Assembly: GCF_015852565.1 (NCBI RefSeq)
Contig: NC_136205.1
Span: 3,066,707-3,130,706 of the forward strand
DNA from: Branchiostoma floridae
Lineage: Eukaryota
Direction: 5' to 3'
Length of the DNA: 64,000 nt
The position numbers and the translations under genes are program-made. How positions within the stretch are numbered: position 1 is the first letter of the stretch; every line of letters begins with the position of its first letter. This document shows, piece after piece, positions 49,901 to 64,000 of this stretch. Under the pieces are notes generated by a model that did not search any database, was not told the origin of the DNA, and was given only the letters and a program-made list of their open reading frames with translations.

Positions 49901-52452
49901 GAAAAAAGAAATTGCACAAATGTCTAATCTGAAAAATGATGCTCACAAGTAATCATGTTTTTTTTCAACCCTCTGCAGGTTCCTTTAGTGGAAGAGAAAT
50001 TGATGTAGTACCTGTCGTGACCACAAGGGGGAGGGTCATCACAGAGACAACTGTTGACCAAATCTTTGCACTGCTAAAGGTATCATTTGTAATTATTGGT
50101 TCAAATATAAAGTATAGTAGCTCTAGTTTTAGAGTGATGAATTACTGTAACATTAACACTGAATTTATTCTTTTTTGAGTGGGAGATTAGAATTGGTCTT
50201 GCACCCATCCATAATTTGACTGTTTTTTTGACAGTTTACTGCGTACTCGGATGCCAAAATGTTCTTTTATTCTTTATTGCAGGCGCTAATAGGCCCATAG
50301 TAAAAGCCTACTGTATAAGACACACAACATAACATAGATATTAAAACAACAATGCCACTCTATGTGTACAAGCGCCTCCTGATGTTTTTGAAATATTATT
50401 GTGTTATGGTAGAAAGAATCCAACTAGATGGAATGGGAAGAGTGGAAAAGCGGAATATACAAAAGAACGTTTGCGTCATGATAGAGTAATATTAGCATAG
50501 ATAATACCATAGTTTACTCATATAGCTAAAACCCAAGGATAAAACAATCAAATTTAATTATATTGCCCCCCTCCCCAGCACACTGACCAGGGGCTCTCCT
50601 ACTGGGAGTTCAGTCCAGAGTTAGACGAGTTGCTTGGGATTTCCAGTCAGCAGTGCATCCAGATATTTAACACTGCAGGACTCAAATCTCTGGGTAAGAT
50701 CTCATTCATGATCATGGTCATAAGGATATGTGTCCATACATGTAGTCAGGTCAGATGACAACTGTTTCCCTCCTGTCAACAGTCTTTCAGCCTGCAAAAA
50801 GAATCTTCACATCTATTTCCTTGCATGATACTAAGTAATTTTCGCAAACCCATCAACTTAGTTCATTGCCTAGAAGTGGTCAAATGGTCTTGCTTTGATC
50901 AAGCCATATTGCATTAACAAAAGGTAAAGAAATGAAATAAGGAATGAATGAAGACCTTTATTCTACATTTTTGCCCAACTGAACTAAGCACAGGTCACAA
51001 GAAAGACAAAACACACAATGTTATGCAAAAGTACAATATTATTTGTATCATAGATCTAATCTAGTGAAGAAGTTTGGCTTCTTCTCCCTTCCTGGTAATG
51101 GTAAAAATGTAGGCTTGTATGTTGTTAGGTTTGTCAAAATGCAACTCATATCTATTAAGTGAATCTACTTCCTATTTCTATCATTAACATAGTGCATAGT
51201 CCAATCAACAACGAAGTGAACTTCATCTTCATTTATCTTCATCTCCAGGTGTGAATGTTGCCAGGCAGATACTGCAGCTGGTGGCCACCTTTGAACAAGC
51301 TCGTACAAAAAACATTGAAAAATACCTTTAAGTTAGCACTGAGTGGGACATAATTTTTTATTTTTATTTTGATCTCCAGGTGCGAATGTTGCCAGGCAGC
51401 TGCTGCAGCTGGTGGCCACCTTGCTGGTTGTGCAGCTGCTGATGCTGCACCTGCCGCAGCTGTTCCCCAGCTGCAGGAGCCTGCTGCACCTGGATGTGGC
51501 GCAGGTGCCGGCCAAGTGGTGCAGTGCATTGCAGCAGGTGCTCACATGGGCCAAGGTAGGATTTTGTACTACAAAACTACCAAAACTAGACTGAGTTTGT
51601 ACTACAAAAACTTAATTTGTATACACTTGTTGCAAGAAGAGGAAAGAGACATGTAAATGATAGATGTAATAATAGTGGCGCAGGCGTCAGCCACTTGGTG
51701 CAGCACACTGCAACAGGTGCTCACATCGGCCAAGGTAGGAGTTACCTACTGATAATATGAGGGGCAATCAATAAGTTTACACAGAAAAAAGGTGCACAAC
51801 TCAAATTTTGGAGCATTATAAACTATATGAATGTGCACCAAAATTCAATGGGCCAAGGTAGGAGTTGGCTACTTAGTATGAGGGGTGATCAATAAATTCT
51901 TGGACTCATGAATAAAGGTGCTTAACTCAGATTTTGGATCTGATGTAAAGTATAAAGTATTATATGAATTTGTACCATAATTCAAATCATTGTGATCATT
52001 ATTGTACAGGCAACACCCAGTAATGGTAGGTAAGAGAGAAGAAAAAACATGGACAATTGAGCTGCAAGCTGAGGTGTGCATGTCAACTTGTTCTGCTAAA
52101 TGTCGGATACTAATAAAAGAATTAGGCACTGAAGAGGACGAATTTGAAAGAGAAATCAAGAAGCTTAAGATCACACCAATGTTCACTCATCAGGTATAAG
52201 CTTTGTTGTACTGTTGACCAATCGCTTACGTGACATGAATTATGAGGAAGACTGCAGTTGAAATTTCTATGTACTATTTTCTTGTGGTGGAACAAAATTT
52301 TAATTCTGTTATCATATAAATCTATTCGTTTATTAATTTTTCTATTTTCACAGAGTGTTGACACGATGCACCCATCAGTGTACTCCCGTTTGGAGCTTGG
52401 GAAGAGTTGGGAGGACCTGACCACAAAGCTGATCGGTGTCAGCAATGCATAG
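21542..52452 (+). CDS. PARP4: Gene model (39 coding exons): vault poly(ADP-ribose) polymerase (PARP4/VPARP) homologue. Domains: BRCT, PARP regulatory and catalytic, VIT, vWA, long disordered mosaic linker, C-terminal vault-interaction region.
   Basis: Colinear by-eye similarity to human PARP4 across all globular parts. Examples: [119 protein letters not shown]. All exon phases are consistent. ATG at 21542, TAG at 52450-52452. Confidence 0.9.
22171..22366 (+). CDS. PARP4: PARP4 exon 2 (BRCT, C-terminal part)
   Basis: [65 protein letters not shown]. ttctag/gtaatt. Confidence 0.85.
22636..23133. mobile_element. Foldback element with about 230-bp arms and a central G36 homopolymer (PARP4 intron 2)
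   Basis: Left arm cattatagagaattgctaaactttcattccaacac... The right arm is its reverse complement, ending at 23133. G-run at 22904-22939. Confidence 0.8.
23247..23545 (+). mobile_element. 5'-truncated copy of the SINE-like element seen at 11360-11900
   Basis: gggcatgttcgggcatga...ggaagtcctcctag...gcatctgctgg..cacacgttgcatacagttg is colinear with 11567-11815. Confidence 0.7.
23715..23775 (+). CDS. PARP4: PARP4 exon 3
   Basis: (A)[19 protein letters not shown]. ttccag/gtaagg. Phase 1 to 2. Confidence 0.7.
23978..24101 (+). CDS. PARP4: PARP4 exon 4
   Basis: [41 protein letters not shown]. Compare human QDFEVAKYNTLEK. cttaag/gtgagt. Confidence 0.75.
24484..24615 (+). CDS. PARP4: PARP4 exon 5
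   Basis: [44 protein letters not shown]. taacag/gtgaga. Confidence 0.75.
24762..25111. mobile_element. MITE with cagggctcgaaat termini (intron 5)
   Basis: 13-bp perfect TIR. The interior holds many gggtgcac repeats. Confidence 0.65.
25290..25454 (+). CDS. PARP4: PARP4 exon 6
   Basis: [55 protein letters not shown]. taccag/gtaagt. Confidence 0.75.
25835..26005 (+). mobile_element. Interspersed repeat family B copy (intron 6)
   Basis: Colinear with 8363-8535. Confidence 0.7.
26092..26229 (+). CDS. PARP4: PARP4 exon 7
   Basis: [46 protein letters not shown]. Compare human VSDLVEMIWAEALGHLEHML. ctgtag/gttcgt. Confidence 0.8.
26893..27069 (+). CDS. PARP4: PARP4 exon 8 (PARP regulatory/helical domain)
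   Basis: [59 protein letters not shown]. Compare human AEGILLLVKAALKNGETAEQLQKMMTEFYRLIPHK...KKADLCQ. Confidence 0.85.
27073..27426. mobile_element. hAT-type MITE (family D), copy 2, inserted 3 nt into intron 8
   Basis: 16-bp perfect TIR cagggctctagccagc / gctggctagagccctg. 8-bp TSD gtcaggta at 27065-27072 and 27427-27434. Confidence 0.85.
28013..28176 (+). CDS. PARP4: PARP4 exon 9 (regulatory to catalytic junction)
   Basis: [54 protein letters not shown]. Compare human LIRDMVNVCETNLSKPNPPSLAKYRALRCKIEHV. Confidence 0.85.
28199..28382. repeat. (GAGT)n microsatellite, intron 9
   Basis: gagtgagtgagt... for about 180 bp. Confidence 0.95.
28694..28885. mobile_element. Foldback MITE, intron 9
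   Basis: ccccctcacattag...gagtctgcgagctctaaattacgaggaggcatgaccctga, with its reverse complement forming the second arm. Confidence 0.7.
29065..29173 (+). CDS. PARP4: PARP4 exon 10 (catalytic; His of the H-Y-E triad)
   Basis: [36 protein letters not shown]. Compare human VLQIFRVGRVNETTEFLSKLGNVRPLLHGSPVQ. Confidence 0.85.
29363..29391 (+). CDS. PARP4: PARP4 exon 11 (29-nt microexon)
   Basis: AQNFVGILS. Compare human NIVGILC. tttacag/gtaggc. Needed for frame continuity. Confidence 0.75.
29827..29922 (+). CDS. PARP4: PARP4 exon 12 (catalytic; Tyr of H-Y-E)
   Basis: [32 protein letters not shown]. Compare human [31 protein letters not shown]. Confidence 0.9.
30280..30605 (+). repeat. Two extra tandem copies (152-bp period) of the acceptor and 5' half of PARP4 exon 13 (pseudo-exons)
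   Basis: Copies start at 30302 and 30454; the real exon starts at 30606. Both extra copies diverge after GATGTGTA into TCAACACGGCATCGATTCCTAA, which gives an in-frame stop. Confidence 0.85.
30606..30789 (+). CDS. PARP4: PARP4 exon 13 (catalytic)
   Basis: [62 protein letters not shown]. Compare human LSTSIKYSHPGETDGTRLLLICDVALGKCMDLHEKDFSLTEAPPGYDSVHGV. Confidence 0.9.
31017..32610 (+). mobile_element. 5'-truncated non-LTR (LINE) retrotransposon: reverse-transcriptase C-terminal part plus 3'UTR, in PARP4 intron 13, same orientation as the gene
   Basis: ORF 31113..32291, open upstream to 31017. RT motifs: [44 protein letters not shown] (YxDD). (CAAA)n tail at about 32595-32610. Confidence 0.85.
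32794..32837 (+). CDS. PARP4: PARP4 exon 14 (catalytic Glu of H-Y-E)
   Basis: [14 protein letters not shown]. Compare human DDEFVVYKTNQVKM. ttacag/gtatgt. Confidence 0.85.
33018..33185. mobile_element. MITE family C, intact copy (intron 14)
   Basis: Termini acagtagaagcca ... tggcttctactgt. Colinear with the split copy at 18330-18488 and 19697-19712. Confidence 0.75.
33803..33921 (+). CDS. PARP4: PARP4 exon 15
   Basis: [40 protein letters not shown]. Compare human KYIIKFSMPGDQIKDF. Confidence 0.85.
34405..34541 (+). CDS. PARP4: PARP4 exon 16 (VIT domain start)
   Basis: [46 protein letters not shown]. Compare human AGLQDASGNLVPLEDVHIKGRIIDTVAQ. Confidence 0.85.
34998..35216 (+). CDS. PARP4: PARP4 exon 17 (VIT)
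   Basis: [73 protein letters not shown]. Near-identical blocks to human PARP4. Confidence 0.95.
35666..35800 (+). CDS. PARP4: PARP4 exon 18 (VIT)
   Basis: [45 protein letters not shown]. Compare human [26 protein letters not shown]...ATVAPWQ. Confidence 0.95.
36278..36427 (+). CDS. PARP4: PARP4 exon 19
   Basis: [50 protein letters not shown]. Compare human QSFSLTMSIEMPYVIEFIFSDTHELKQK. Confidence 0.85.
36873..37007 (+). CDS. PARP4: PARP4 exon 20
   Basis: [45 protein letters not shown]. Compare human RTDCKAVISTMEGSSLDSSGFSLHIGLSAAYLPRMWVEKHPEKESE. Confidence 0.9.
37697..37883 (+). CDS. PARP4: PARP4 exon 21 (vWA domain with MIDAS DxSxS)
   Basis: [62 protein letters not shown]. Compare human ACMLVFQPDL...VIICLDCSSSMEG...VNIIQFGT. 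Confidence 0.9.
37925..38090. repeat. About 60-bp minisatellite with a ggtgctgattggct core (CCAAT-box-containing), intron 21 block
   Basis: Three units. Same family as 38480-39175. Confidence 0.8.
38291..38364 (+). CDS. PARP4: PARP4 exon 22 (vWA)
   Basis: [25 protein letters not shown]. Compare human GYKELFSYPKHITSNTMAAEFIMS. Confidence 0.85.
38480..39175. repeat. About 60-65-bp minisatellite (about 11 units) with a ccttggtgctgattggct core, intron 22
   Basis: Repeated tcatttcaaatgattctatttcatct(t/c)tccttggtgctgattggctatcacat units. At least ten intact ATTGG (reverse CCAAT) across both blocks. Confidence 0.85.
39355..39542 (+). CDS. PARP4: PARP4 exon 23 (vWA)
   Basis: [63 protein letters not shown]. 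Compare human MGNTDFWKTLRYLSLLYPARGSRNILLVSDGHLQDE...RLFACGIG. Confidence 0.9.
40163..40262 (+). CDS. PARP4: PARP4 exon 24 (vWA end)
   Basis: [33 protein letters not shown]. Compare human STANRHVLRILSQCGAGVFEYFNAKSKHSWRKQ. Confidence 0.9.
40505..40572. repeat. (CA)n microsatellite, intron 24
   Basis: acacacacac run. Confidence 0.9.
40843..40922. repeat. (CA)n microsatellite, intron 24
   Basis: cacacacaca run. Confidence 0.9.
41040..41210 (+). CDS. PARP4: PARP4 exon 25
   Basis: [57 protein letters not shown]. Compare human SVSVKWQQLNPDVPEALQAPAQVPSLFLNDRLLVYGFIPHCTQ. Confidence 0.9.
41405..41535 (-). mobile_element. Interspersed repeat family B copy, reverse orientation (intron 25)
   Basis: The reverse complement matches gacacccaggtaa...caactgga...cggacatttcaag of the 8363-8535 type. 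Confidence 0.55.
41601..41810. mobile_element. MITE family A, full copy, 20 bp upstream of the PARP4 exon 26 acceptor
   Basis: tactgtaaatgtatttaagttcgcgg ... cacgaacatttctgcatttacagta. Confidence 0.8.
41830..41910 (+). CDS. PARP4: PARP4 exon 26
   Basis: [27 protein letters not shown]. Compare human [27 protein letters not shown]. Confidence 0.9.
42408..42488 (+). CDS. PARP4: PARP4 exon 27
   Basis: [27 protein letters not shown]. Compare human MIHKLAARALIRDYEDGILHENETSHE. Confidence 0.9.
42953..43054 (+). CDS. PARP4: PARP4 exon 28
   Basis: [34 protein letters not shown]. Compare human [34 protein letters not shown]. Confidence 0.9.
43530..43658 (+). CDS. PARP4: PARP4 exon 29
   Basis: [43 protein letters not shown]. 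Compare human VSELIAKEDVDFLPYMSWQGEPQE. 129 nt, phase 0-0. Confidence 0.85.
43786..44130 (+). CDS. PARP4: PARP4 exon 30 (candidate cassette): in-frame exon encoding the C-terminal half of a 14-3-3 protein
   Basis: [115 protein letters not shown]. Compare 14-3-3 zeta [71 protein letters not shown]. tttctag/gtcctt. 345 nt, phase 0-0. Confidence 0.65.
44185..44575. repeat. 63-bp minisatellite (about 6 units) immediately 3' of the 14-3-3-like exon
   Basis: Unit gttaagcccttgtcttacatacctgaccatggcctcccaaccttctccagaccatggtcaggag. Unit starts at 44308, 44371 and 44434. Confidence 0.9.
44836..44875 (+). CDS. PARP4: PARP4 exon 31 (40 nt; acidic, Tyr-rich)
   Basis: [13 protein letters not shown]. caacag/gtaaga. 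Shifts the phase from 0 to 1, as required to enter exon 34. Confidence 0.6.
45029..45169 (+). CDS. PARP4: PARP4 exon 32 (acidic linker)
   Basis: [47 protein letters not shown]. ttctag/gtaaga. Phase 1-1. Confidence 0.6.
46038..46133 (+). CDS. PARP4: PARP4 exon 33 (acidic linker with a ribosomal P-stalk-tail-like motif)
   Basis: [32 protein letters not shown]. ttcacag/gtagga. Phase 1-1. Confidence 0.6.
46399..48751 (+). CDS. PARP4: PARP4 exon 34: 2.35-kb exon encoding a low-complexity/disordered region (RS run, CTD-like heptads, FG repeats, polyQ, H3-tail-like peptide, polyPro)
   Basis: Part of track ORF 46374..48755. Acceptor ttcaacag at 46391-46398, donor ACAG|gtaaga at 48751/48752. Phase 1 in and phase 2 out, matching the neighbouring exons. 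Confidence 0.8.
49443..49519 (+). CDS. PARP4: PARP4 exon 35
   Basis: (R)[25 protein letters not shown]. tttcag/gtaggt. Phase 2 to 1. Confidence 0.65.
49979..50079 (+). CDS. PARP4: PARP4 exon 36
   Basis: [34 protein letters not shown]. ctgcag/gtatca. Phase 1 to 0. Confidence 0.7.
50579..50693 (+). CDS. PARP4: PARP4 exon 37 (C-terminal vault-interaction region)
   Basis: [38 protein letters not shown]. Compare human QTEDGFWKLTPELGLILNLNTNGLHSFLKQKGIQSLG. Confidence 0.85.
51380..51555 (+). CDS. PARP4: PARP4 exon 38 (C-terminal region)
   Basis: [59 protein letters not shown]. Compare human VKGRECLLDLIATMLVLQFIR...ISRNIPWAFEAIKQASEWVRR. Confidence 0.8.
52354..52452 (+). CDS. PARP4: PARP4 exon 39 (terminal, with stop)
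   Basis: [32 protein letters not shown]. Compare human QYPSICPRLELGNDWDSATKQLLGLQ. ttttcacag acceptor, phase 0. Confidence 0.85.
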   Translation, partial: SVDTMHPSVYSRLELGKSWEDLTTKLIGVSNA

Positions 52453-53086
52453 TAGTCACATGGCTGATTTCAGTAACAAAACAGTAGAGGGTAAAAGTTG
52501 TCTATTTTTGGAGTAGCATGTCAATAAGTACCAGTAGCATTTCATATTTCTTTCAAGATTGTATTATAAATCTTGAGACGTTTTAAAATTCTAAGAAACA
52601 TACTTTTATACTCAAAGAATCTTGAGACTAAATATAAAGATGATCTTGGAAAATCTCAAGACTGATGCAAAACATTTCAAGATTTACCACAAAATCTCAA
52701 GATATTTGGAATAAACCCCAAGATTTTTCGATTTTCAACTAGGTATGAAGACCAATATAATCTGTTGAGTACCATATGTTTTTCACAAACTATCAGCTAT
52801 CTAAGTTTAAGCTGTAAGAGGCTAGAAGTATTTGTATAAAGTGCTCTGCTTAGTCCAATAATAGTCTTCTAAGTTTTCAGTAATGTTAAGACAGCTACAT
52901 GTATATTCTGACAGTAAGAGATCAGTAACAGGTACTCATAGGAAAACTTAAGTTTAACTGTTCTTTTATCAATGATTAAGTTACATTGTCTTTGTTCTGC
53001 GTAAATATGATGATATCAATAATTGTAATTTTCATTTGTACTAAATTGAATATAGCATTGGTGTGTTAAGCATGTACGAAAGAAAA

Positions 53087-53092
53087 AATAAA
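53087..53092 (+). terminator. PARP4: Candidate polyadenylation signal AATAAA for PARP4
   Basis: AATAAA about 640 nt after the stop. Position only. Confidence 0.25.
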
Positions 53093-53269
53093 GTTGTCTT
53101 ACACCTTTATGTTTTATGTCATTTAGTACTTTTTTTTTAGATATCCATGTCTAGATGCCTCCCTCTACATCTACCAATAATGCATATCTATTGACCCCCT
53201 CATTGTGTACACTTCCATTCCCTTCCGTTTTTTACGCACACACTCCCACTGACAAACACACACATTTAC

Positions 53270-53440
53270 ATAGGTGAGCGTCCACACACACACGCACACA
53301 CACACACATAAATATACACACGCACACAAACGCAATTGCAACAAGAGTTCGTAGACCTCAGGCCTGCATGAAATGTAATTGGTGTATGTTGAGATGTTGT
53401 GTATTTGTGTGTGTGTGTGGGTGGGGGGGGGGGGGCTGTG
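53270..53440. repeat. (CA)n/(GT)n and poly-G microsatellite cluster
   Basis: cacacacgcacacacacacac ... gtgtgtgtgtgtgggtggggggggggg. Confidence 0.85.
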
Positions 53441-54935
53441 TATCTTTGTGTGAATGGCCAGCTATGTGTAGCAGTATGGTTGTTGTAACCATACACTAAC
53501 CTTGTTTGAATGGGTCATGGTTTGTTATGGTTTTGGTGTGTGTGTGCGAAATAGTGGTTTGATCATTACTACAATGGTCTAATCTGATTTTGTACCCCTC
53601 AAAACATGGAGACACCAGAATAATTATTTTTGTAGCAGGTGTGGTTACAGTGATATTGACAAAAACAAGATTTTCTGTAAAACTGCCAAAATGGTGGTGT
53701 GATCATTACAAACATGGATTAATCTGGTTATTTATCCTTCGAAACATGGGGATAGACACCAAAATCAATTTGATACCATGTGAAGTTACTGAGATATTGA
53801 CAAAAAGAAGACTTTTCTTAATAAGTTAATGGCCGCCCTACTTTGCATATTGTGCGTATTGCCTAATGATGACAGAATGGCATAATCCAGATTCTTATAG
53901 AGCACACCTCAGAGGCATAGAAACATCAAAAGAACTTTGTATGAATTACATTGCAAGGTTATGTAAAAATATGGGGTTTGGCAACCAAACTAAGTCTTGT
54001 GTGGTAAGTATCAATGTGGTCGCTATGTTCATGTTGTAACAAAGACATTATAAAATGAAGGTATTGAAGTCAAAAGGCCAGTAACATTCTGTGCATAGTA
54101 AGAAAACAGTTTGTAATATATAGTTGTCAGGCACATGGCAGTATTGTATATCAGTAATAGTATCAAAATGACACAATGAAGAACTGGTAACCTTTAGCGC
54201 AAAACACCTGATCATCTGTAACACTGGACACACAACCATATAAATACAGTGTAGGTCCTAGTCATGACTTCCACTGGCACAATTTAAAGCCACCCTTCAT
54301 TCCAGATATCACATGACATCCCAACCATTTACCCAACATAAATATCAAATCCTATGATAAACATTTACACCAAAACAAGGTACAAACACACACAACCATA
54401 CAACATCGCAATACATCATCGCATATGACTATCAGTACAATAGACAACAAAAACAAGGGTATACATAATCTACAAAAAAAAACATACACATACCACTCTC
54501 TTACGCTAACACACTATCTCCTTCTCCTCCACCTTAGAAACTCGTCTCTTCTTGCGTTTCCCCATGATGACCAAACACGCTCATAACCTCGTATCACAAG
54601 TATAGAGGCTTGTACAGGACTGAAAGCAACACTTTAGCCTTCAGCACCACAACTTATACCTGACCAATCAATACAGCAGCAGATTAAACCAACCTACAAG
54701 CACTCTTAGAACAGAAGCCACTGATGTGATTTGTAACAACAGCACAGCCTGCTGTGACCACAAGCAAGCAGACCTACATGTACTAGTATCATCTGTTTCT
54801 TAGGAACAAATCCACTGCAGGATATCTAAAATTAGACCTGTCACTCAAACAGCCACACAAACCGTCATCTGGGTTCACAACCAAGCAGATATGAGTAGAC
54901 CTGCCCCAACCAAAAAAAAAACAGCATCAGCCTAC

Positions 54936-55505
54936 AGTGTCAAGTTCAAGCACTAGGAGGCCCAAAATCAAACCTGACCACCAGGACACAAGCAACAATC
55001 CACGTAACAAATAGCAACACAATGGCACCTTGCGTTCCGGAGATACAGCGCACGCGCCGTGCCCGCAGAAAAGGTAACCTGGAATGTCAAGTTCAAGCAC
55101 CAAGGGCGCCAAAATCAAAATTGAGAATTATTCAGCCACCACCAACACATGTGCCAAATATCATTGCGCCCGCACCAACCGTTCAGAAGATATAACTCCG
55201 GAAAACCCCCTCCCCGACACAAAATTCGACCTGCCGCGTCAGGTTCAAACGCGACAAGGCCCAAAGTCAATCCTAGGCAACAAGCAACAACTCCCCACCC
55301 ATGCACCGAAAATCGTCGCAATGGCGCGTATCGTTCCGGACACACAGCGCCAAAAGTGCCCCAAAAAACACAAAAAATGCCACCTTCAATATTAAGTTCA
55401 AGCACCAGGAGGCCCAAAATCAAACCTGAGTGTCAAGCTAACACCCCCAACCCACGTACCAAAAATCGTCGTGCTCGCACCATCCGTTCTCGAGATACAG
55501 CGCCC
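54936..55505. repeat. Tandem repeat, about 4 units of 148-154 bp (intergenic)
   Basis: Unit starts gtcaagttcaagcac at 54938, 55086 and about 55392, plus a diverged gtcaggttcaaacgc at 55238. Confidence 0.8.
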
Positions 55506-56542
55506 TAAATCCCCAGCTTCCAAAAGTTCCCACGCCCCTGAAAACCATACCTGCATACATGCAGGTAATTACACAAACATAAATACCCACATACACATAC
55601 ATGTACACACATAATTACACACTGTCAGACACATATAAATACATACACGCGCATACAAGCACTCACATGTAGGATGCAGACAATACCTACATTTGCATAC
55701 ATTATTAAGAATGGTCTGGAGCCTGCCCAAACTGGTTCTTCTGCATGTTTCCTTGTTTATCGCATTTGTGTCCAACCCACCAAACTGGGCGTCTCGGTAC
55801 AACGGTACAACATCTGCTGTATCTAGCTAATAATAACAAGACAGAAGACTTTTGGCTCATCAACCTAAAGACGGTATGTGGTCTTTGAATTCTATAGCTA
55901 TCACTTTTGTGTCTTACATTGGCGGCAAATACGACCAAGTTGTCGTAAGACGTTGAAACTCTTTAATGCTTCTCATTGTGTATATGTCCTCACACACCAG
56001 CAACGATTTTCCAACAACCTGCCTCAACCGTAATCATGCACGTTAGGGTTTTTGCCTTGCCGCCAGGCAAGGCTTTACGCCAGCTTTTTTCCATGGATCA
56101 ATGGACGGACCTTTTAACCCAGCCCTTCCAAAGCCCCTTCCAAAGGCCCTTCTTTCCTTGCCGAGTTTCATGGCTTAGTTAGACAATGGTACATTCCAGA
56201 CGAGTATTAAAACGCTCTTCTAGACGCATGTTACTGTATGTGGTCCAGCGTAATAAATCTACGCTTTAACTCACCATGTTCATATAAATATATATCACAA
56301 ATTGCATCAGAAGGAACTTAGTTTGTAATAAAAAATAATGCATATTCATTGTGGGTCAAAAAGTTTTACAAAACCTGTTTAATGTGCCAATAATTCATCT
56401 GACATAAATTATGATAATGAGGGGGAGGGGGGCGACATGTGGAACTCGGGATTTTTAAGCGTAGAATCTAGTCTAACTTACCAAAATAACATAAAATACG
56501 CGGCAAGGCACAGCTTTTTTAAAAAGATTTCTTGTTTGACAG

Positions 56543-56578
56543 CAGACCTTTTTCGTCTAGTAGTACGTTTCGGCACAG
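56543..56578 (+). CDS. eIF5A-like locus: possible upstream exon (weak)
   Basis: Frame DLFRLVVRFGT + G, loosely like eIF5A VHLVGIDIFTG. Acceptor tttgacag, donor gtaatc. Phase fits the next exon. Confidence 0.3.
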
Positions 56579-56664
56579 GTAATCCCGACTTAGAGATGGA
56601 GGGGGTAGAATGGTGATCCCGTTCTTGAGGAGAGTCACACATGTGCACATCGAGTACCTTTAAG

Positions 56665-56708: not shown

Positions 56709-57316
56709 GTGAGCGTAAGCAGTTCATAACCTTTATAATCTTAAATGAATTATCGACATCCTCGCAAATCAACCTTTGGCTTCAAATAGAGAGTAGTACT
56801 CAATGGCAGGCTCGATCTCATTCAAATGTGCAACATGTAGCGATTTAGTTTAGAAAAAATACACCAGCTTATGTTGAATAGATAACGTCGAAAGAATTGA
56901 ACAATGCTATAGTTGGCTACAGAAATTATTGACCATTATAGTAAAACATTTTACGGAAAGTATACTAGAAATGACTCAAACAGTCCTATGAAATCATAAG
57001 GTTCATTCAAATGCTTAGGTACCTCTGTTCCTTAGAAAGTCAGATAAACTGTACCGACTCACAATAAAGCTTTAACGTTAAACAGAGTACAAGAACAAGA
57101 ACAGTTACTGATCTAATCTGATCCTTGGACTTGCAACTGATCTGTGCTTAGGTGCACACGAGCAACTGCGCAGATGCCTGCTTTACACACGGTCAGACGT
57201 CATCTTGTCAACAATGGACACGAACCTGCTTAGGTTTGAAAAACGTCATCTTGTCAGCAATGGACACGAACCTGCTTAGGTTTGAAAGATGACATTTGGA
57301 ATATTTCCTGTTCTAG

Positions 57317-57454
57317 GTGGTTGCTGCTGACGGTGTCGTCCTGACCGTCTTGGACCGCGTGACCGAAGACGAGAGAGAGATAGAGTTGCCACAGGGCTAT
57401 CTTGGCGACGAGATAAAAACTCGTTTTGATCAATTGGAAAGTTGTATCGACGTG
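57317..57454 (+). CDS. eIF5A-like locus: exon for the C-terminal (OB-fold) domain
   Basis: VVAADGVVLTVLDRVTEDEREIELPQGYLGDEIKTRFDQLESCIDV. Compare eIF5A [44 protein letters not shown]. ttctag/gtaagc, phase 0-0. Confidence 0.6.
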
Positions 57455-58027
57455 GTAAGCCTTGCTTAATACACCTTCAAACATTGTCTAACAGGCTGCT
57501 TTTATTTAGCAGTAAAACTTACGGACTTTTCATATTCACTTTTGGAACAGTCCATTTTTGCATGAGTTGTGAGATGGTTAGATATGCTGTATTTGTTCGC
57601 AAATATTACCCGTCTATTTGAATATTTTTACTTGGATGTCTGATCTCCAGGAGCCCGTGGCGTCCCGATTTTAATTTTTTTTTACACTTATCAGCTCGAT
57701 GAAAAATGGACCCTTCCAGCCGAACGCCATATCAAACAAATAGAATCCCCTGTTCTATTTCGAATACTCGGTCAAAAAGAGCCCTAGTGGGATAGGAGTA
57801 GCTAAAGAAAAAATGCTATGCCTTTTTTGTTGAAGACTACACCGGCCGAGTATAGTTGTTTTGGAAGGGTGGGCGCTACATACGTAGCATTACTTTGTTC
57901 CTGGGAAGGATGCACGTGCAAAGTGTGCGTAGTAGGGGCGGGATTCTGCAGTAGCGAACTTTAATTTTTAGTAGGGTCTTATATTTTGTATATGGATACT
58001 GAAGAGGACCTTCTTTTGTTCCTGTAG

Positions 58028-58093
58028 GTTATAACTGTTGTGTCGGCGTGTGGTGAGGAGAAGGTCATTGGCCACAAAAGCATTGCACACTAA
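58028..58093 (+). CDS. eIF5A-like locus: terminal exon with stop
   Basis: VITVVSACGEEKVIGHKSIAH*. Compare eIF5A [20 protein letters not shown]. cctgtag acceptor. Confidence 0.6.
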   Translation, partial: VITVVSACGEEKVIGHKSIAH

Positions 58094-58121: not shown

Positions 58122-58389
58122 GACAGTCTAATACCCTGGGGGCCAGACAGGATCGGGTAGCTAGCAATTTTTGTTCGGGGACCCAAAGCAGTCAGCCCGC
58201 CGATCTCACATAAGCGCTCCGGGGAGTTCAGCCGGAAGGAGTTATCGCTACGGAAATGGGCAGGTGGACATTCTTCGGGCTTAAACTCCCCGGAGCGCTG
58301 TTAGGAGATCGGCGGGCTGACTGTCTTGGGCCACCGAATGAACTGCCCAAGCTGCCCGATCCCGGCTGGCCCGTTGGGTACAGTCTAAC
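58122..58389. mobile_element. Hairpin (foldback) MITE
   Basis: Left arm: gacagtctaa..ggccagacaggatcggg..gcagtcagcccgccgatctc..agcgctccggggagtt. Its reverse complement forms the right arm. Confidence 0.75.
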
Positions 58390-58639
58390 CGAGCAGTTTG
58401 CAAACTGACATGATACCGGGTACCATTTGCTTCGGTGCCCGCAAGGAGCCCTGATGCCACAAAATGTTCCGGTGGACTGCCGGAGTGACTGGGAGGAGGT
58501 ACCTCTCGGTACTATTATGTTTATTGCAAATTCTTGCAGTAGAAAAGTAGTTGAAAGTTCTATGCACTATTTTCCCATGTTGAAATGTTTTGATTCTGTA
58601 ATACATTCATTCTTTTATTTTTCCTTTTTTTTCTCACAG

Positions 58640-58738
58640 GGTGTTTACGCGATGCACCCATCAGTGTACTACCGTTTGGAACTTGTGAAGAGTTGGGAGG
58701 ACCTGACCACAAAACTTATTGGTGTCAGCAATGTGTAG
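58640..58738 (+). pseudogene. Duplicate of the PARP4 terminal exon (99 nt, intact ORF and stop), 6.3 kb downstream of the real one
   Basis: [32 protein letters not shown], versus exon 39 [32 protein letters not shown]. Preceded by ttctcacag. The upstream approx. 100 bp also resemble 52240-52350. Confidence 0.7.
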
Positions 58739-59810
58739 TAGTCACGTTGTTTTCAGTTCATCTTCCTCTCATGGTTTAATTTTACACATTTTACAATTTC
58801 AACAAATTTACACAGACATTCCTATATGCAACAACATTAGAAGATATACCAATACAAAAACGAGAAGTCACAAATATAAGCGCATCAAATGTACATAAAA
58901 GAAGTCTTACATAGACATACCGCCATCTTAGGACATTTATATAGTCACAAAACAGCAGATGTCGTCATTCTTACAAATACAACAGCTTTCCACATACCTA
59001 AACATGAGAACATATATCACAATACACACAAAAAAGAAGAAAATTGATGGTGGACGTGCAACATAAAAATCAAAAACAGATTCAGTGATGGACTCCAGTG
59101 ATTCCACTGTACGTTGTAGAAACTTTTGATTACCGAATAAAGCTTTGAAGAAATACAGTTTGTAACGCTATACGGTTAACAGAAAACCTTATTATCAAGG
59201 TATAGATTTAAACAACTTGGGAGCTATAGTCTAAAATAAGCTTTTTTTTCAAGTGTTGGCACCATATATGTACATTTATACTTAGGTGTGTTGAGTTTGG
59301 TTCTTGCCCTGAATTGTATGTGACCTTTTTTTAAATTTGAAAAGATGAAGCAAGACCAGAAAACCAAAACATTAACTTAGTTTTGCCTAAAATGTACAAA
59401 ACAGGAACTAGAATATATTTTACACATATCGAATAGCTATGCAACTTGGGTGTATATGTATATGAAAAATGATTATTCTTCAATGTTTTTTTAATGGAAA
59501 CTTAAGTTTCACTGCCTTTGATCTACTTATATCTAATGATATCACTAATTTGAATTTCTCATTTGTACTGAAATATAGGCTTGGTGTATTGTGCGTGTAT
59601 GAAAGTTTAAAAGATGTTCTCTTAAACCTTAATATATCTTAATGGCTCAGACTTCAAGAAAATGACTTAGGTTCCTGCCCTGAGTTGCTTTCCTCCACAT
59701 CTACCCACACTGTATTTACTCCCTCATTTTGAACAATTCCTTTCCAGTTGTAACATTCATCTAGACTAACGTTTTGAACACCTAAATAAACCATCACCAA
59801 CACTCTTTAG

Positions 59811-60017: not shown

Positions 60018-61225
60018 TTAAAGTCCAAATACGTGTAGGAAGTTTTTATTCGATTCCTCCCAGTACTTCGAATCCAGCAGTTTCTGCTTGAGCCGTTGAG
60101 CAACCTTGAACTCCGTGCTTCTATTCTTCAATATCTGCACAATGCGCGTTTTTAGCCTTGCCACGTCTTCGTGGTCATCGCCACTGATCTCCACAATCGG
60201 GTGCGTGAAATCCAAGTCACCGTCAATCTTATATTGGGCCTTCAAGAACTCTGCAAGCCCCGACTTGCTGGAAACGACCGTAGGGACACCCGCAGCGATG
60301 GCCTCGAGGCCAACCAGTCCGAATGGCTCTGCACGTGACGGCATCAGAACAACATCTGCCCTTCCCATCTCTTCGCACAGCTCTTCCTGTGTGCAATACT
60401 CCAGAGGGGTGAAGGGAACAAACTCAAATTTACCTTTGTTGGCGTTGATGATCTCCTGTGTTTTTTCAAAATCCCCTTTCTTGATGCCACACAGTCGCCA
60501 CTTCGTGTTGGGTAGTTCCTCGATCACATCTCCCATGCTCCGTGCTGAAAGATCGTAGCCTTTCAACCTCTCCACACCCTTGACCCTACCGATGGACAGC
60601 ACCACTCTTGTGTCGGTCTCCGCGGGTGGTTCCATATTGGCCTTGCTGAATATGTCGGACGGTTTAGGCAAAAACTGGATCCGTTTTAGTTGTTTGACTT
60701 GCTTTGTCTGATGCGTGTAGTAGTCGTGCAACCTTGGACCTACTGAGACGACAACACTTGCATCTTTAAGGTCATCCAGAATGCTCGCATGCTCCTTTGC
60801 TATCTCCTGCACTCTCTCTGTACTTTTGTAGTGGCTCGTGTTTTCAGGGATGACGTGTGTGACTTGGGCGAGTTTGGCGTCAGGAAGGCGGTCCTCCTTG
60901 ATTCGTTTTGCTGCGCGGCTTGTGATGTTAACGTGACCGACGATGAAGTCTACATCTTCCGGTAAGTGTGGATAATAAGTCAGATGTTGCCGGGTCAGCC
61001 ACTTAAGGTTTGGGGTTTCGTCGTCATCTTCGGTTCTTGGAAAGATCAGCTGAACCCCATCAGCAGCTGCATCATCCTTGTCCTTCTGGTTGGCCTGTAA
61101 GACTGTGCTGTAGACCTTTGCCCCTTTCAAAGCCAGAAAGCGCGCCGTCTGGCGGTGGATAGTGGATATGCCCCCTTTGGAGGTCCCATACTCATCGTTG
61201 AGCATCAACACCACGGGCTTTCCCC
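60018..61225 (-). CDS. ZU5-UPA-GT gene terminal exon: complete GT4-type glycosyltransferase domain (about 400 aa) in one exon
   Basis: Track ORF 60018..61244. Gly-rich N-terminal motif: KPVVLMLNDEYGTSKGGISTIHRQTARFLALKGAKVYS. E-x7-E motif EPFGLVGLE at 60303-60329, followed by AIAAGVPTVVSSKSG. Acceptor ctgtttaaag at 61226-61235, phase 1. Confidence 0.85.
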
Positions 61226-64000
61226 CTTTAAACAGCAAATGCACATAGTTTTTTCAAAGTTGCAGATAGACTGTTGATATCATTAAAAGTAGTAAAATAT
61301 GATTGCATGATCTTGGGCCTCCATCCATAGCTAAAGATATAGTTAAAGGTGTTGATATTTTAGGATGTACACTTAGCTATTGTCCTCGTGTTCGATACAA
61401 GTGCAGCATTTTGTCGATTAGGTTATACCTGGCAACTTCCTCATCATTTTCAGTTTTTCTAAGGTAGCACAACGTACAATTATATGCATTCAGTTCACTT
61501 TAGGAAATAAAACATGTGAGCCAGATTTGCCTTGTCCACTTCTGTACACTTCGGGGCTACCTGTGTGTTAGCTGGTCTCAGTTTTCTGTCCAAACAATGC
61601 TGCAGTGTAATGCACAATGTAGATCCTGTATGCTCGACGTATGGGGCAATTGACTTGTTTTTGTTTTTTTAAACATGGTACTGGTACTGTTATAATGCAG
61701 CAAAGTACTAGTACTATTTTAATGACCCAATTTACAGCTGTCGTCCACAAGTCCCATAGACTTTTGTTGCTTTGGACTGGAAAATGTATAAATCCTCACC
61801 TTCTTTCCGAGAGGCAGGTGCTGTTGCCCCTGCCGGGCCACTATGGAGATTGGTGTTAGAATCGTCTGGCTCAGCACCCATCTCAGGTACACCTGTAGTT
61901 TAAGGGTCAAATAGTTGATGTAATATCGAGTGCTTTATTTCAAAGTCTAAAGACTTTATACAAATGAAACATAATCAGAACCATATACGTGTATTTGGAT
62001 ATATGCGTATTTGGTAAAATGAAATGAAATGAAATGGATTCTCACCTGGGTTACTGGTTTCAGTTGGTACATGGCCAGACCCAACTTTATTTGGGGATGT
62101 CTCAGGACGGTGGTCATTGGTCCGGTTACCATTACCTACCAAGCACGAAGAAAAACAACATAGCAATTAGACCCGGTGATATGTTAAGACGTATATGAAG
62201 ATATAACTTCAGGTGTGCAAAAGTCAAAATATAACCAAATTAAAGGCCCTCGTCAGTAATTCTCATAGACTTTCGTTGCCTTGGACTGGTAAATTATATA
62301 CTGTACGTGGTTTCTATTTATTCGGAATTAGCCTCTCAAAGTGTCGCAGAATTCCATAAAACTACATCTAGATCACTTATTTGACATCTGAACAAAATCA
62401 AAGCAACAGTACCATTGTTAAATAACAATTATAACAATTCGGCATAACAATTACAAAAATTCGGCATCACAGAATGAAGGGACATTTTGTATTCCTAGAC
62501 TTTTATAGAAATAATTACATGACTTTTGCAAAGAGAAAAATGTACTCACTAGAAGTGTTAGGAATTCGATCTTGGCGTTCCTGAAAGAGAAAAAAAGCAC
62601 GCCGGGAACTTTATTTTGGGGACATCGCAATACCATAATAATGGCTAATTGTAGCATGATGATCTACTAAATCGTACATCAAGTAGACGTGTTTGATATT
62701 ACACCATAATATTTGGTCATATGATTCTAAAGCTACATTTTGTTTGTACTATGGTTTTAATCCGGTATTTGGGTAAGCTTTGCTTTAGAATAAAGCATTT
62801 TCGGTTATATCTTAGACGCTCTTACCTCCCGAAACGTGAACCTGCATACAACCCGAGGTTCTTGCTCTTGAATAGTTGTGATGATGACTTCACCCTTAAG
62901 ATGTTTTCCGTTCGGCCTATCCAGGAGCATTTGAACAGTCTGTCCGTGCTCTTCGCGACAGAGCTGGGCACATAGCTCTATTGTCTGAGATTCTTTTTGG
63001 CCTTCTTTGATACTGACAACAACTTCAATATCATTCCTTTGAAACAGATCGAACATTGCTTTGTTGCTTCCACACATGGTGAAGCCAGGAAGGTAATAAT
63101 CTTTTTCAACACTCTTGTCCCTACACACAACATGGAAATCTACGTCTACTTCATGTGGCTTGATGTGTGCGGAAAACCGACAATTTAAAGTTCTTAACGA
63201 CAGAACGTATGCCATGCTCTGTCCTACATGTACACCCGTTTCAATTTGCTGCAGCTGCTGCTCGGTCCACAGCACACACAGGGGACAGAAGGCTTGCAGA
63301 GATATGGACAGTTTGTCCGGATGTATCTGATGTGGGGTTGAAGCTGTGATATCTGCCCAGCCATGTCCATCGAAATGCTTCAGCAGAACACATTCCATGC
63401 CTTCAGTACCCGGAGGTCTCCATGTCTCTAGCTCAATTGGTCCACTCAGCTGTGCGCCGTGTAGGTTGACATCGACAGCCGGGGAGAACAGCACCTGATC
63501 CAGCAGCTCGCGTGGACAGGCCTCCTCACATAGAGACCAAGGGTAGCCAGAGATCCAGCTGAAGCCTTCGTCACCTCTCAAAATATCGGGAATGTCTACA
63601 GTAGAAACTGTAATTGTTGTGTCTCTCTGAAGGACGCCTGATGGCACACAAAGTTTGGCAAAACCGGAAATCTCAATCTCCCCACCCGATGGTCCTACAA
63701 ACGCCTTTGCAGTCTTTGTGTGATGTAGCTCTTGCAGTATTCCTAAAATAAGTCAAAGGCATATTAGATTTGATACGTGCAAAATACAAATTTTGTTCAA
63801 ATATGTTTTACGTAAATCACCTGGCTGTCTTTCCAGTGCATAATACAGTTTGAAAGGAAAGTAATCTAGGGCGAGAAAAAACAGTACATTGGTTGTAGAA
63901 AAAAGTATGCTATACTCGATTCGAATTCTCTGTTGCGTACACACGCTCTGCTTGCAGTAAGAACTTGGTGTGTGTTGATGAAATTCAAACAAACCTGCAA
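60018..64000 (-). CDS. Gene model (3' part; the 5' exons lie beyond 64000): FIIND-like ZU5-UPA module, Pro/Ser/Thr/Gly-rich linker, GT4-family (Glycos_transf_1, GT-B fold) glycosyltransferase domain
   Basis: Five exons with canonical splice sites whose phases (x/0, 0/1, 1/1, 1/1, 1/stop) give a single open frame from 63742 to the stop at 60018. Confidence 0.75.
61800..61892 (-). CDS. ZU5-UPA-GT gene linker exon
   Basis: rc: GVPEMGAEPDDSNTNLHSGPAGATAPASRKE. ctacag/gtgagg. 93 nt, phase 1-1. Confidence 0.6.
62046..62135 (-). CDS. ZU5-UPA-GT gene linker exon
   Basis: rc: SNGNRTNDHRPETSPNKVGSGHVPTETSNP. ggtag/gtgaga. 90 nt, phase 1-1. Confidence 0.6.
62550..62580 (-). CDS. ZU5-UPA-GT gene 31-nt exon
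   Basis: rc: ERQDRIPNTS. ctttcag/gtgagt. Converts phase 0 to 1, as needed between the flanking exons. Confidence 0.5.
62826..63742 (-). CDS. ZU5-UPA-GT gene exon encoding ZU5 and UPA (FIIND-like)
   Basis: rc: [48 protein letters not shown]...SPAVDVNLHGAQLSGPIELETW...LLKHFDGHGWADIT...LSISLQAFCPLCVLW (ZU5), then ...NCRFSAHIKPHEVDVDFHVVCRDKSVEKDYYLPGFTMCGSNKAMFDLFQRNDIEVVVSIKEG... (UPA-like). Acceptor ttattttag at 63743-63751, donor gtaaga at 62825. Confidence 0.8.

What the first reader, a model, noticed from the sequence alone, without database searches (positions are those of the whole stretch)
58520..58738. Intact second copy of the PARP4 terminal exon 6.3 kb downstream, beyond an intervening eIF5A-like locus
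The segment 58640-58738 has the same length (99 nt), acceptor type (ttctcacag) and stop position as exon 39 (52354-52452). It encodes [32 protein letters not shown], versus [32 protein letters not shown]. About 100 bp of upstream intron is also similar (58520-58630 vs 52240-52350). The copy is open and in phase 0, so it could serve as a mutually exclusive alternative last exon from 51555. It could also be a relic of a segmental duplication. The eIF5A-like exons lie between the two copies on the same strand.
Basis: seen in the sequence. Interest (0 to 1): 0.5.

Follow-up and report, generated by a model that had tools for sequence, protein, structure and literature searches.

The report
Decaying duplicate of PARP4's last exon
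A second, still-open copy of the last exon of the amphioxus vault-PARP gene (PARP4) does lie 6.3 kb downstream, but it is most likely an ordinary pseudo-exon: a leftover of a small Branchiostoma floridae-specific duplication that is deleted in another haplotype and absent from current gene models.

Summary
Window 58640-58738 is a 99-nt, phase-0, open copy ("B") of the PARP4 terminal exon at 52354-52452 ("A"). About 90 nt of upstream intron were copied with it, and so was a second collinear block (59460-59745 vs 52938-53221).

The window is a B. floridae haplotype. NCBI models for this haplotype, the B. floridae reference, B. lanceolatum and B. belcheri all end in copy A. Only a 2008 JGI read-through model (C3Y4W7) contains B.

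- **Lineage-specific:** B. lanceolatum and B. belcheri have one terminal exon and no eIF5A-like gene within 10 kb downstream.
- **Polymorphic:** in the B. floridae reference haplotype the B region survives only as flank remnants, with the exon deleted. That haplotype carries an intact 4-exon eIF5A-like gene. The window haplotype has lost that gene's exons 1-2.
- **No sign of constraint:** B-specific changes are 4 nonsynonymous to 2 synonymous. They hit residues conserved from amphioxus to human in the vault-docking MINT domain (G→V at human G1693). An open frame is expected by chance 70% of the time.
- **Unresolved:** exon B is better preserved than its flanks and shares three derived sites with one A allele. 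I attribute this to ectopic gene conversion.

Verdict: a relic partial duplicate. An alternative last exon is not supported. Low interest.

The parts
51380..51555 (+). PARP4 penultimate coding exon, ending in phase 0 (...QQVLTWAK)
   Evidence: 100% match to NCBI protein P0001; tblastn of P0002; sequence read
52354..52452 (+). Copy A: the PARP4 terminal exon used in annotated models ([32 protein letters not shown]). It encodes the C-terminal end of the MINT (vault-docking) domain.
   Evidence: aligns to human PARP4 1678-1706 in PDB chains 9bw6/9bw7/11jf
52256..52353 (+). Parental intron segment that was copied along with the exon
   Evidence: blastn 52256-52474 vs 58549-58757, 79%; 72.5% over 110 nt
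52938..53221 (+). Parental 3'-flank block (contains AATAAA at 53087) whose copy lies downstream of B
56570..56591 (.). Junction of a haplotype-specific ~1.5-kb deletion. L001 51740-53287, which carries eIF5A-like exons 1 and 2, is replaced here by 22 nt.
   Evidence: blastn window vs L001; exons located in L001; no N-terminal eIF5A exon anywhere in the window
57317..57454 (+). eIF5A-like exon 3 (OB-fold part), phase 0 at both ends
   Evidence: Pfam PF01287, E = 1.7e-9; sequence read; tblastn
58028..58093 (+). eIF5A-like exon 4 with its own stop codon (VITVVSACGEEKVIGHKSIAH*)
58132..58380 (.). 97-nt inverted repeat pair (MITE-like) between the eIF5A-like stop and copy B. It is also present in L001.
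58549..58639 (+). Copied intron segment with an intact polypyrimidine tract and cag acceptor
58640..58738 (+). Copy B: open 33-codon duplicate of the terminal exon ([32 protein letters not shown])
58739..58757 (+). Last ~19 nt of detectable A/B homology after the stop codon. Similarity drops to ~50% beyond this point.
59460..59745 (+). Second collinear block of the duplicate (66% identical to 52938-53221). A's AATAAA is not conserved here.

Best explanation
Copy B is a non-functional leftover (pseudo-exon) of a small DNA-level duplication of the 3' end of PARP4, and the duplication arose in the B. floridae lineage. It copied at least 1.1 kb: the last ~240 nt of intron 38, the terminal exon, and ~770 nt of 3' flank.

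The copy sits downstream of an eIF5A-like paralogue and has been eroding since. Different haplotypes have lost different pieces. In the reference haplotype the exon itself is deleted.

The exon copy in this window is still open only because it is short and has few changes. Its unusually good preservation relative to its flanks is best explained by occasional ectopic gene conversion with the real exon 6.3 kb upstream. The origin, erosion and lack of annotated use are shown. Gene conversion and non-expression are inferred.
For: 1. **Duplicate with non-coding flanks.** Two collinear homology blocks are present.
2. **Lineage-specific.** B. lanceolatum (L002) and B. belcheri (L003) each have one terminal exon. 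Neither has a copy B or an eIF5A-like gene within 10 kb downstream. Both copies share the B. floridae-specific states E20, T24 and S30.
3. **Exon deleted in another haplotype.** In GCA_000003815.2 (L001), the B region at 57517-57688 matches only A flanks (window 52167-52235 and 52880-52953). The stretch equivalent to A 52236-52879, exon included, is missing, and there is no assembly gap there.
4. **Annotation.** P0001 (this haplotype), P0007 (B. floridae RefSeq), P0008 (B. lanceolatum) and P0101 (B. belcheri) all end in copy A. No other protein in the 5.8-billion-sequence collection carries the B tail, except the 2008 JGI read-through model P0002.
5. **B-specific changes fit neutrality.** They are 4 nonsynonymous (D3Y, S11Y, G16V, A32V) and 2 synonymous (binomial P = 0.52). 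An intact frame after 6 random substitutions occurs in 70% of simulations.
6. **Conserved residues are hit.** The four replaced residues are invariant in every A exon of three species. G16 aligns with human G1693 and D3 with human E1680. S11 directly precedes the arginine that aligns with the MVP-contacting R1689 (PMC12280208).
7. **Poly(A) signal.** A's AATAAA at 53087 aligns to AAAAGA in B.
8. **Unstable locus.** The penultimate-exon fragment is present in 2-3 copies here against 5 in L001. The window also has a 152-nt triplication at 30266-30721 and a 1.5-kb deletion of eIF5A-like exons. This fits the widespread presence/absence variation reported in amphioxus (PMC12373286) and its 3.2-4.2% heterozygosity (PMC10013865).
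Against: The exon is much better preserved than the rest of the duplicate. It has 6 changes on the B branch, against about 16-17 expected from the flanks (Poisson P ≈ 0.002). The boundary of good preservation roughly coincides with the exon.

That is what purifying selection on B would also produce. I attribute it instead to gene conversion. B shares three derived sites (codons 4, 25, 27) with the reference A allele against this window's A allele and the outgroup. Block 2 says the duplication is several-fold older than the allelic split (66% vs 95.7% identity).

The direction and timing of conversion cannot be reconstructed cleanly from three sequences. The acceptor of B is at least as strong as that of A, and an AATAAA lies 398 nt after B's stop, so occasional splicing to B is physically possible. 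No transcript data could be examined. Copy B is intact in two of the three B. floridae haplotypes sampled (the window and JGI v1).
Confidence: 0.75

Rival explanations
1. Copy B is a functional alternative (mutually exclusive) last exon of PARP4. Transcripts that run past A's poly(A) site would splice 51555>58640 and give a PARP4 isoform with a variant MINT C-terminus (Y3, Y11, V16, V32), possibly with altered vault docking.
For: B has the same length, phase and stop position as A, and a strong acceptor. An AATAAA lies 398 nt downstream. The exon is an island of high similarity within a diverged duplicate.
Against: No annotated isoform uses B. The exon is deleted in the reference haplotype. 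It is absent in two sister species. B-specific changes are 4N:2S and include G→V at the glycine conserved with human G1693. Copy A and two AATAAA signals lie upstream and would be met first.
Confidence: 0.07
2. Copy B is the captured terminal exon of the neighbouring eIF5A-like gene. Splicing 57454>58640 would give an eIF5A-like protein with a PARP4 tail, as in the JGI model C3Y4W7.
For: The C-terminal part of P0002 reads eIF5A-like exon 1, then exon 3, then copy B. Exon 3 ends in phase 0 and B starts in phase 0.
Against: The eIF5A-like gene has its own canonical last exon with a stop codon upstream of B in both haplotypes (58028-58093 here; L001 56379-56444).

The two features do not co-occur consistently. 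The haplotype with the intact eIF5A-like gene lacks exon B. The haplotype with exon B lacks eIF5A-like exons 1-2.

The JGI model also reads through PARP4's stop codon and skips eIF5A-like exon 2, which is typical of an ab initio fusion artefact. Thirty-two residues are only the end of the ~160-residue, 8-helix MINT domain (PMC12280208) and are unlikely to dock to vaults alone. No NCBI protein from this eIF5A-like locus was found in the collection.
Confidence: 0.04
3. Exon B is kept by selection for some other role, not as a regular coding exon. Examples would be a donor of sequence variants to exon A by gene conversion, or an RNA-level decoy or 3'-end element.
For: The exon is preserved far better than its flanks. 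Three derived states are shared between B and one A allele, which shows that sequence has moved between the copies.
Against: Exchange between paralogues happens without selection for it. The exon-deletion allele shows B is dispensable in at least one haplotype. No structure or motif beyond the parental exon was found.
Confidence: 0.08
4. The second copy is an assembly artefact, such as a haplotig mis-join.
For: Amphioxus genomes are highly heterozygous and prone to false duplications (PMC12373286).
Against: The copies differ at 11% of exon sites, and their flanks are 27-34% diverged with unrelated sequence between them. An independent assembly (JGI v1, protein P0002) has A, the eIF5A-like exons and B in the same order. 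The reference assembly retains B-region remnants.
Confidence: 0.02

Closest known systems
Unprocessed (DNA-duplicated) partial pseudogene, or 'orphan exon', left by a small segmental duplication
   Same: It is a copy of one exon with adjacent intron and 3' flank, and it has no promoter or upstream exons of its own. Its flanks are diverged and eroded by indels. It is a presence/absence polymorphism, and its substitutions fit neutrality.
   Different: The exon itself is still open and splice-competent. It is less diverged than the flanks, apparently because of exchange with the parent exon.
Tandem exon duplication giving mutually exclusive or alternative terminal exons (a known route to alternative splicing; from general knowledge)
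   Same: Two same-length, same-phase copies of an exon lie on the same strand, each with an acceptor and a stop codon.
   Different: Several features are not typical of working alternative last exons. The copies are 6.3 kb apart with another gene's exons between them. There is no conservation across species or haplotypes. No annotated transcript uses B.
PARP4 MINT (MVP-interaction) domain, human residues 1562-1724 (PDB 9BW6/9BW7; PMC12280208)
   Same: The amphioxus C-terminus (P0001 residues 51-174) aligns to human 1582-1706 (E = 1.5e-13). The terminal exon covers the PS..RLELG..W...L.G segment, including the arginine that aligns with the MVP-contacting R1689.
   Different: Copy B is only the last 32 residues of the domain. 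It carries G→V at the conserved glycine (human G1693), D→Y at the position of E1680, and S→Y next to the arginine.
Pseudogene-to-gene ectopic conversion (e.g. CYP21A1P/CYP21A2, chicken Ig pseudo-V genes; from general knowledge)
   Same: A nearby defective copy and the functional exon share derived variants in a pattern that the age of the duplication does not explain.
   Different: The evidence is only three sites in three sequences. The direction is unknown, and no phenotype or programmed mechanism is implied.
Chimeric genes formed by exon capture (e.g. jingwei, TRIM5-CypA; from general knowledge)
   Same: The 2008 JGI model joins eIF5A-like exons to a PARP4-derived tail in frame.
   Different: The eIF5A-like gene keeps its own terminal exon and stop codon. 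The fusion is unsupported by current annotation and by haplotype structure.

Membership tests
PARP4 terminal exon (C-terminal end of the MINT domain) | Sequence homology to the MINT C-terminus of PARP4 | tested here: met
   Copy A aligns to human PARP4 1678-1706. Copy B is 81% identical to A at the protein level and 89% at the nucleotide level.
PARP4 terminal exon (C-terminal end of the MINT domain) | Retention of residues conserved from amphioxus to human (RLELG motif, acidic residue at human E1680) | tested here: not met
   Copy B reads RLELV (G16V) and has Y in place of D3. All A exons of three Branchiostoma species, and human, keep G and D/E.
PARP4 terminal exon (C-terminal end of the MINT domain) | Spliced to the upstream MINT exons in a PARP4 transcript | not testable with these tools
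   No transcript data were available. All NCBI protein models end in copy A.
Alternative / mutually exclusive last exon | Same phase and length, intact acceptor, in-frame stop | tested here: met
Alternative / mutually exclusive last exon | Own cleavage/polyadenylation signal | tested here: inconclusive
   AATAAA occurs at 59136 and 59785, but the parental signal (53087) is lost at the homologous position in B.
Alternative / mutually exclusive last exon | Conserved in other haplotypes and related species | tested here: not met
   The exon is deleted in B. floridae GCA_000003815.2. It is absent within 10 kb downstream in B. lanceolatum and B. belcheri.
Alternative / mutually exclusive last exon | Purifying selection on the coding sequence | tested here: inconclusive
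   The B branch has 4 nonsynonymous and 2 synonymous changes, which fits neutrality (P = 0.52). The exon nevertheless has fewer changes than its flanks predict (P ≈ 0.002). This test is confounded by gene conversion and a hypervariable intron.
Partial duplicate pseudogene (relic of segmental duplication) | Copy includes non-coding parental flanks and lacks the upstream exons and promoter | tested here: met
   Only the intron tail, the exon and 3'-flank blocks are copied. No other PARP4 exon has a copy downstream.
Partial duplicate pseudogene (relic of segmental duplication) | Structural decay or dispensability | tested here: met
   Different pieces are lost in the window and L001 haplotypes. 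The interval between the two homology blocks is unalignable. The exon is deleted in L001.
Partial duplicate pseudogene (relic of segmental duplication) | Disabling mutation in the copy itself | tested here: not met
   In this window the ORF, acceptor and stop codon of B are intact. This is expected by chance in 70% of simulations.
eIF5A family (the intervening locus) | N-terminal domain with the hypusine-loop lysine, plus the C-terminal OB fold | tested here: not met
   In the window only the OB-fold exons are present (Pfam PF01287), and no N-terminal exon was found. In L001 the full 149-aa ORF is present, with loop TSGGKHGSGK.

The most novel reading that the evidence does not exclude
Exon B is a young, still-segregating functional module. 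In carriers it would be spliced either to PARP4 (51555>58640), giving a vault-PARP isoform with an altered MINT docking surface, or to the eIF5A-like gene. Through gene conversion it would also feed variants (such as T4A) into the working PARP4 exon. That would make it a polymorphic, lineage-specific modifier of vault targeting.
Probability: 0.06. Interest if true: 0.45.

Novelty: new member of a known kind. Interest (0 to 1): 0.15.

Why it matters
It matters mainly for annotation. The copy explains why the old UniProt entry C3Y4W7 fuses PARP4, an eIF5A-like gene and a second PARP4 tail into one 2524-aa protein. It also warns against calling an alternative last exon from sequence alone.

It is a compact, haplotype-resolved example of how fast amphioxus intergenic DNA gains and loses exon-bearing segments. 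It also suggests that a dead exon copy can exchange sequence with the live exon that encodes part of the vault-docking surface of PARP4. If the copy were expressed, it would offer a natural variant of the MINT domain.

Tried and rejected
- **N-terminal eIF5A exon.** I searched the window for the hypusine-loop exon with human eIF5A and with the JGI sequence. None was found. The window-versus-L001 alignment later explained this as a 1.5-kb deletion.
- **B. japonicum haplotype.** I considered that the window might be the B. japonicum haplotype of the hybrid assembly, which would have made B conserved over ~100 My. I rejected this. The window is 93.7% identical to B. floridae including introns and shares B. 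floridae-specific residues.
- **Open reading frame as evidence of selection.** Rejected by simulation: 70% of frames stay intact after 6 substitutions and 52% after 11.
- **Upstream intron as a neutral clock.** Unreliable. The same 100 nt are only 71% identical between alleles of copy A.
- **Recent duplication from a reference-type allele without gene conversion.** Rejected, because block 2 is 66% identical between copies but 95.7% between alleles. Parallel mutation at three sites is improbable, at roughly 1e-4 by my rough estimate.
- **Pfam on the PARP4 C-terminus.** No family was found.
- **The look-up of encoding contigs.** Nothing was on record for P0001, P0002, P0009 or the window's GT4 ORF, so the hybrid assemblies themselves could not be fetched.
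- **Literature search for amphioxus + PARP4.** It returned no papers.
- **ORF 52002-52199.** It ends in a donor-like CAG|GTATAAG and I considered it a possible exon. The donor is not conserved in the L001 allele and no protein model contains it.

Full report
**1. Observation**

The two segments are as described.

- Window 52354-52452 (copy A) translates to [32 protein letters not shown]. Window 58640-58738 (copy B) translates to [32 protein letters not shown].
- Both are 99 nt, follow a pyrimidine-rich cag acceptor and end in TAG TAG.
- In-window blastn aligns 52256-52474 with 58549-58757 at 79% (E = 1e-47). The exons differ at 11 of 99 nt. The 110 nt upstream are 72.5% identical.
- Homology collapses about 19 nt after the stop and resumes in a second collinear block, 52938-53221 vs 59460-59745, at 66-68% identity.

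The duplicated unit was therefore at least about 1 kb, not only the exon.

**2. What the locus is**

A query built from the last three exons hit NCBI protein XP_078584594.1 ('PARP4-like', Branchiostoma floridae x B. japonicum) at 100% identity. That model uses 51555>52354 and ends in copy A.

PARP4 spans 21542-52452 in the window. The window is a B. floridae haplotype. It is 93.7% identical, introns included, to the B. floridae reference (L001 = GCA_000003815.2, CM022902.1). It also shares B. floridae-specific residues in the terminal exon. The hybrid-trio origin of such assemblies and the 3.2-4.2% heterozygosity are described in PMC10013865.

The C-terminus aligns to human PARP4 1582-1706 (E = 1.5e-13). 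This lies inside the MINT domain (1562-1724), which docks PARP4 inside the vault (PMC12280208). Exon codon 12 (R) aligns with the MVP-contacting R1689, codon 16 (G) with G1693, and codon 3 (D) with E1680.

**3. The intervening eIF5A-like locus**

In the window only two exons exist. They are 57317-57454 (OB fold; Pfam PF01287, E = 1.7e-9) and 58028-58093, which has its own stop codon. No N-terminal exon is present.

In L001 the gene is complete. Four GT-AG exons give a 149-aa ORF with a divergent hypusine loop, TSGGKHGSGK. The window lacks L001 51740-53287, which holds exons 1-2. The gene is a divergent paralogue of B. floridae eIF5A-1-like P0003. No NCBI protein from this locus was found in the collection, and no gene is called there in L001.

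**4. Who uses copy B**

Only one protein does: UniProt C3Y4W7 (P0002, JGI 2008, 2524 aa). It runs through PARP4 copy A, continues into eIF5A-like exon 1 and exon 3, and ends with [32 protein letters not shown]. It skips eIF5A-like exons 2 and 4 and ignores PARP4's stop codon, so I regard it as an ab initio fusion. It does show that a third, independently assembled B. floridae haplotype has A, the eIF5A-like exons and B in the same order.

The NCBI models for B. floridae (P0007), B. lanceolatum (P0008) and B. belcheri (P0101) all end in the single orthologous exon. The hybrid isoforms retrieved (P0009, P0095, P0096) also run through that exon, to ...KKLIG, and then take a different short ending. 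None carries a B-type tail.

**5. Comparative evidence**

B. lanceolatum (L002) and B. belcheri (L003) each have one terminal exon. Neither has an eIF5A-like gene or a copy B in the 10 kb downstream.

In the B. floridae reference haplotype, the region collinear with B (between matches to window 58327 and 59770) contains only two A-flank remnants. These are L001 57517-57597 (≈ window 52167-52235) and 57613-57688 (≈ 52880-52953), 15 nt apart. The equivalent of A 52236-52879, including the exon, is deleted, and there is no assembly gap there.

The window's B copy lacks the 52167-52235 piece that L001 retains. The ancestral duplicate therefore covered at least A 52167-53221, and each haplotype has lost different parts.

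**6. Sequence evolution of exon B**

Pairwise nucleotide differences over the 99-nt exon:

| Comparison | Differences |
|---|---|
| winA vs winB | 11 |
| winA vs RefA | 5 |
| winB vs RefA | 6 |

- B-specific changes are D3Y, S11Y, G16V and A32V plus two synonymous changes. This fits the neutral expectation of 73% nonsynonymous (P = 0.52).
- The four replaced residues are invariant in all A exons of three species, and two are conserved to human.
- Y3 and Y11 are absent from the JGI B copy, so B is also variable between haplotypes.
- Six random substitutions leave the ORF and stop codon intact in 70% of simulations. Openness therefore carries no weight.

**7. The one awkward fact**

Exon B is much less diverged than the rest of the duplicate.

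- Block 2 is 66% identical between copies but 95.7% identical between A alleles. The duplication is therefore several-fold older than the allelic split.
- A neutrally drifting exon should then carry about 16 changes on the B branch, not 6 (P ≈ 0.002).
- The upstream intron is not a safe clock, because it is only 71% identical even between A alleles.
- B shares three derived states (codons 4, 25, 27) with the reference A allele, against the window A allele and the B. lanceolatum outgroup. Chance parallelism is improbable, at roughly 1e-4 by my rough estimate. A recent origin from that allele contradicts block 2.

The simplest reconciliation is ectopic gene conversion between A and B, which resets exon divergence without any selection on B. 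This is an inference from three sequences. Purifying selection on B cannot be strictly excluded, and I carry it as a rival.

**8. Splicing plausibility**

B's acceptor is strong (20/22 pyrimidines). Both 51555 and 57454 end in phase 0, so in-frame joins are possible. However, A and two AATAAA signals (52710, 53087) precede B. The parental AATAAA is not conserved after B (AAAAGA). The nearest AATAAA is 398 nt past B's stop. The eIF5A-like gene has its own terminal exon upstream of B.

**9. Verdict**

Copy B is a relic partial duplicate (pseudo-exon) of the PARP4 3' end. It is specific to B. floridae among the three species examined. It is structurally polymorphic and probably still exchanges sequence with its parent. 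An alternative last exon is not supported, though transcript data are needed to close the question.

- Novelty: a new instance of a familiar kind.
- Interest: low (0.15).
- Most novel reading not excluded: a segregating functional MINT-tail variant, with probability about 0.06.

Noticed in passing
window 30266-30721: There is a 152-nt tandem triplication (94% and 86% identical copies) over part of a PARP catalytic-domain exon. NCBI model P0010 for this haplotype contains the duplicated peptide (…[26 protein letters not shown]… twice). The reference protein P0007 has it once. Because 152 is not a multiple of 3, this allele may be damaged.
   Followed up: partly
window 51232-51873; L001 47427-48239: Partial tandem copies of the penultimate PARP4 exon, each ending in a …GGCCAAG|gtagga donor, differ in number between haplotypes (2-3 here, 5 in L001). 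An upstream partial copy at 51249-51330 would encode an alternative ending, [26 protein letters not shown].
   Followed up: partly
L001 52344-56444 (window remnant 57317-58093): A divergent eIF5A paralogue lies directly downstream of PARP4 in the B. floridae reference. It has an intact 149-aa, 4-exon ORF and an altered hypusine loop (TSGGKHGSGK). No gene is called there, and no NCBI protein from it was found in the protein collection. Its exons 1-2 are deleted in the window haplotype, so it is a presence/absence polymorphism.
   Followed up: partly
window 60018-61244 (- strand): A single-exon 408-aa ORF matches Pfam PF20706 'Family 4 glycosyltransferase in conflict systems' over its full length (E = 3e-77). 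This family is named for bacterial conflict systems, and here it sits in an amphioxus chromosome. It was not found in the portions of L001 or L002 that were fetched.
   Followed up: no
window 62805-63647 (- strand): A 280-aa ORF with no Pfam match lies next to the GT4 ORF. Its function is unknown.
   Followed up: no
window 54912-55514: There is a tandem array of ~150-nt units (62-72% identical) in a stretch with strong negative GC skew (-0.27 over 54001-56000). CA-rich microsatellite-like tracts flank it at 53237-53338 and 55556-55669.
   Followed up: no
window 21542-52452: NCBI annotation splits this haplotype's PARP4 into a 1450-aa protein (P0010, ending in intron-derived sequence) and a 177-aa C-terminal protein (P0001, starting at an intronic ATG at 49936). 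The long disordered exon at 46407-48752 is left out of both.
   Followed up: no
L003 108316-108426; proteins P0009, P0096, P0101: B. belcheri-type PARP4 models have different C-terminal endings after …KKLIG (VGVSLVHE* or WRRRWRDVCLVAPSFFFC*). This suggests an indel, or an internal GGTGTC donor inside the 'terminal' exon. The same GGTGTC is present in both A and B of the window.
   Followed up: no
window 57197-57288: A perfect-register 46-nt tandem duplication (96% identical) lies immediately upstream of the acceptor of eIF5A-like exon 3.
   Followed up: no
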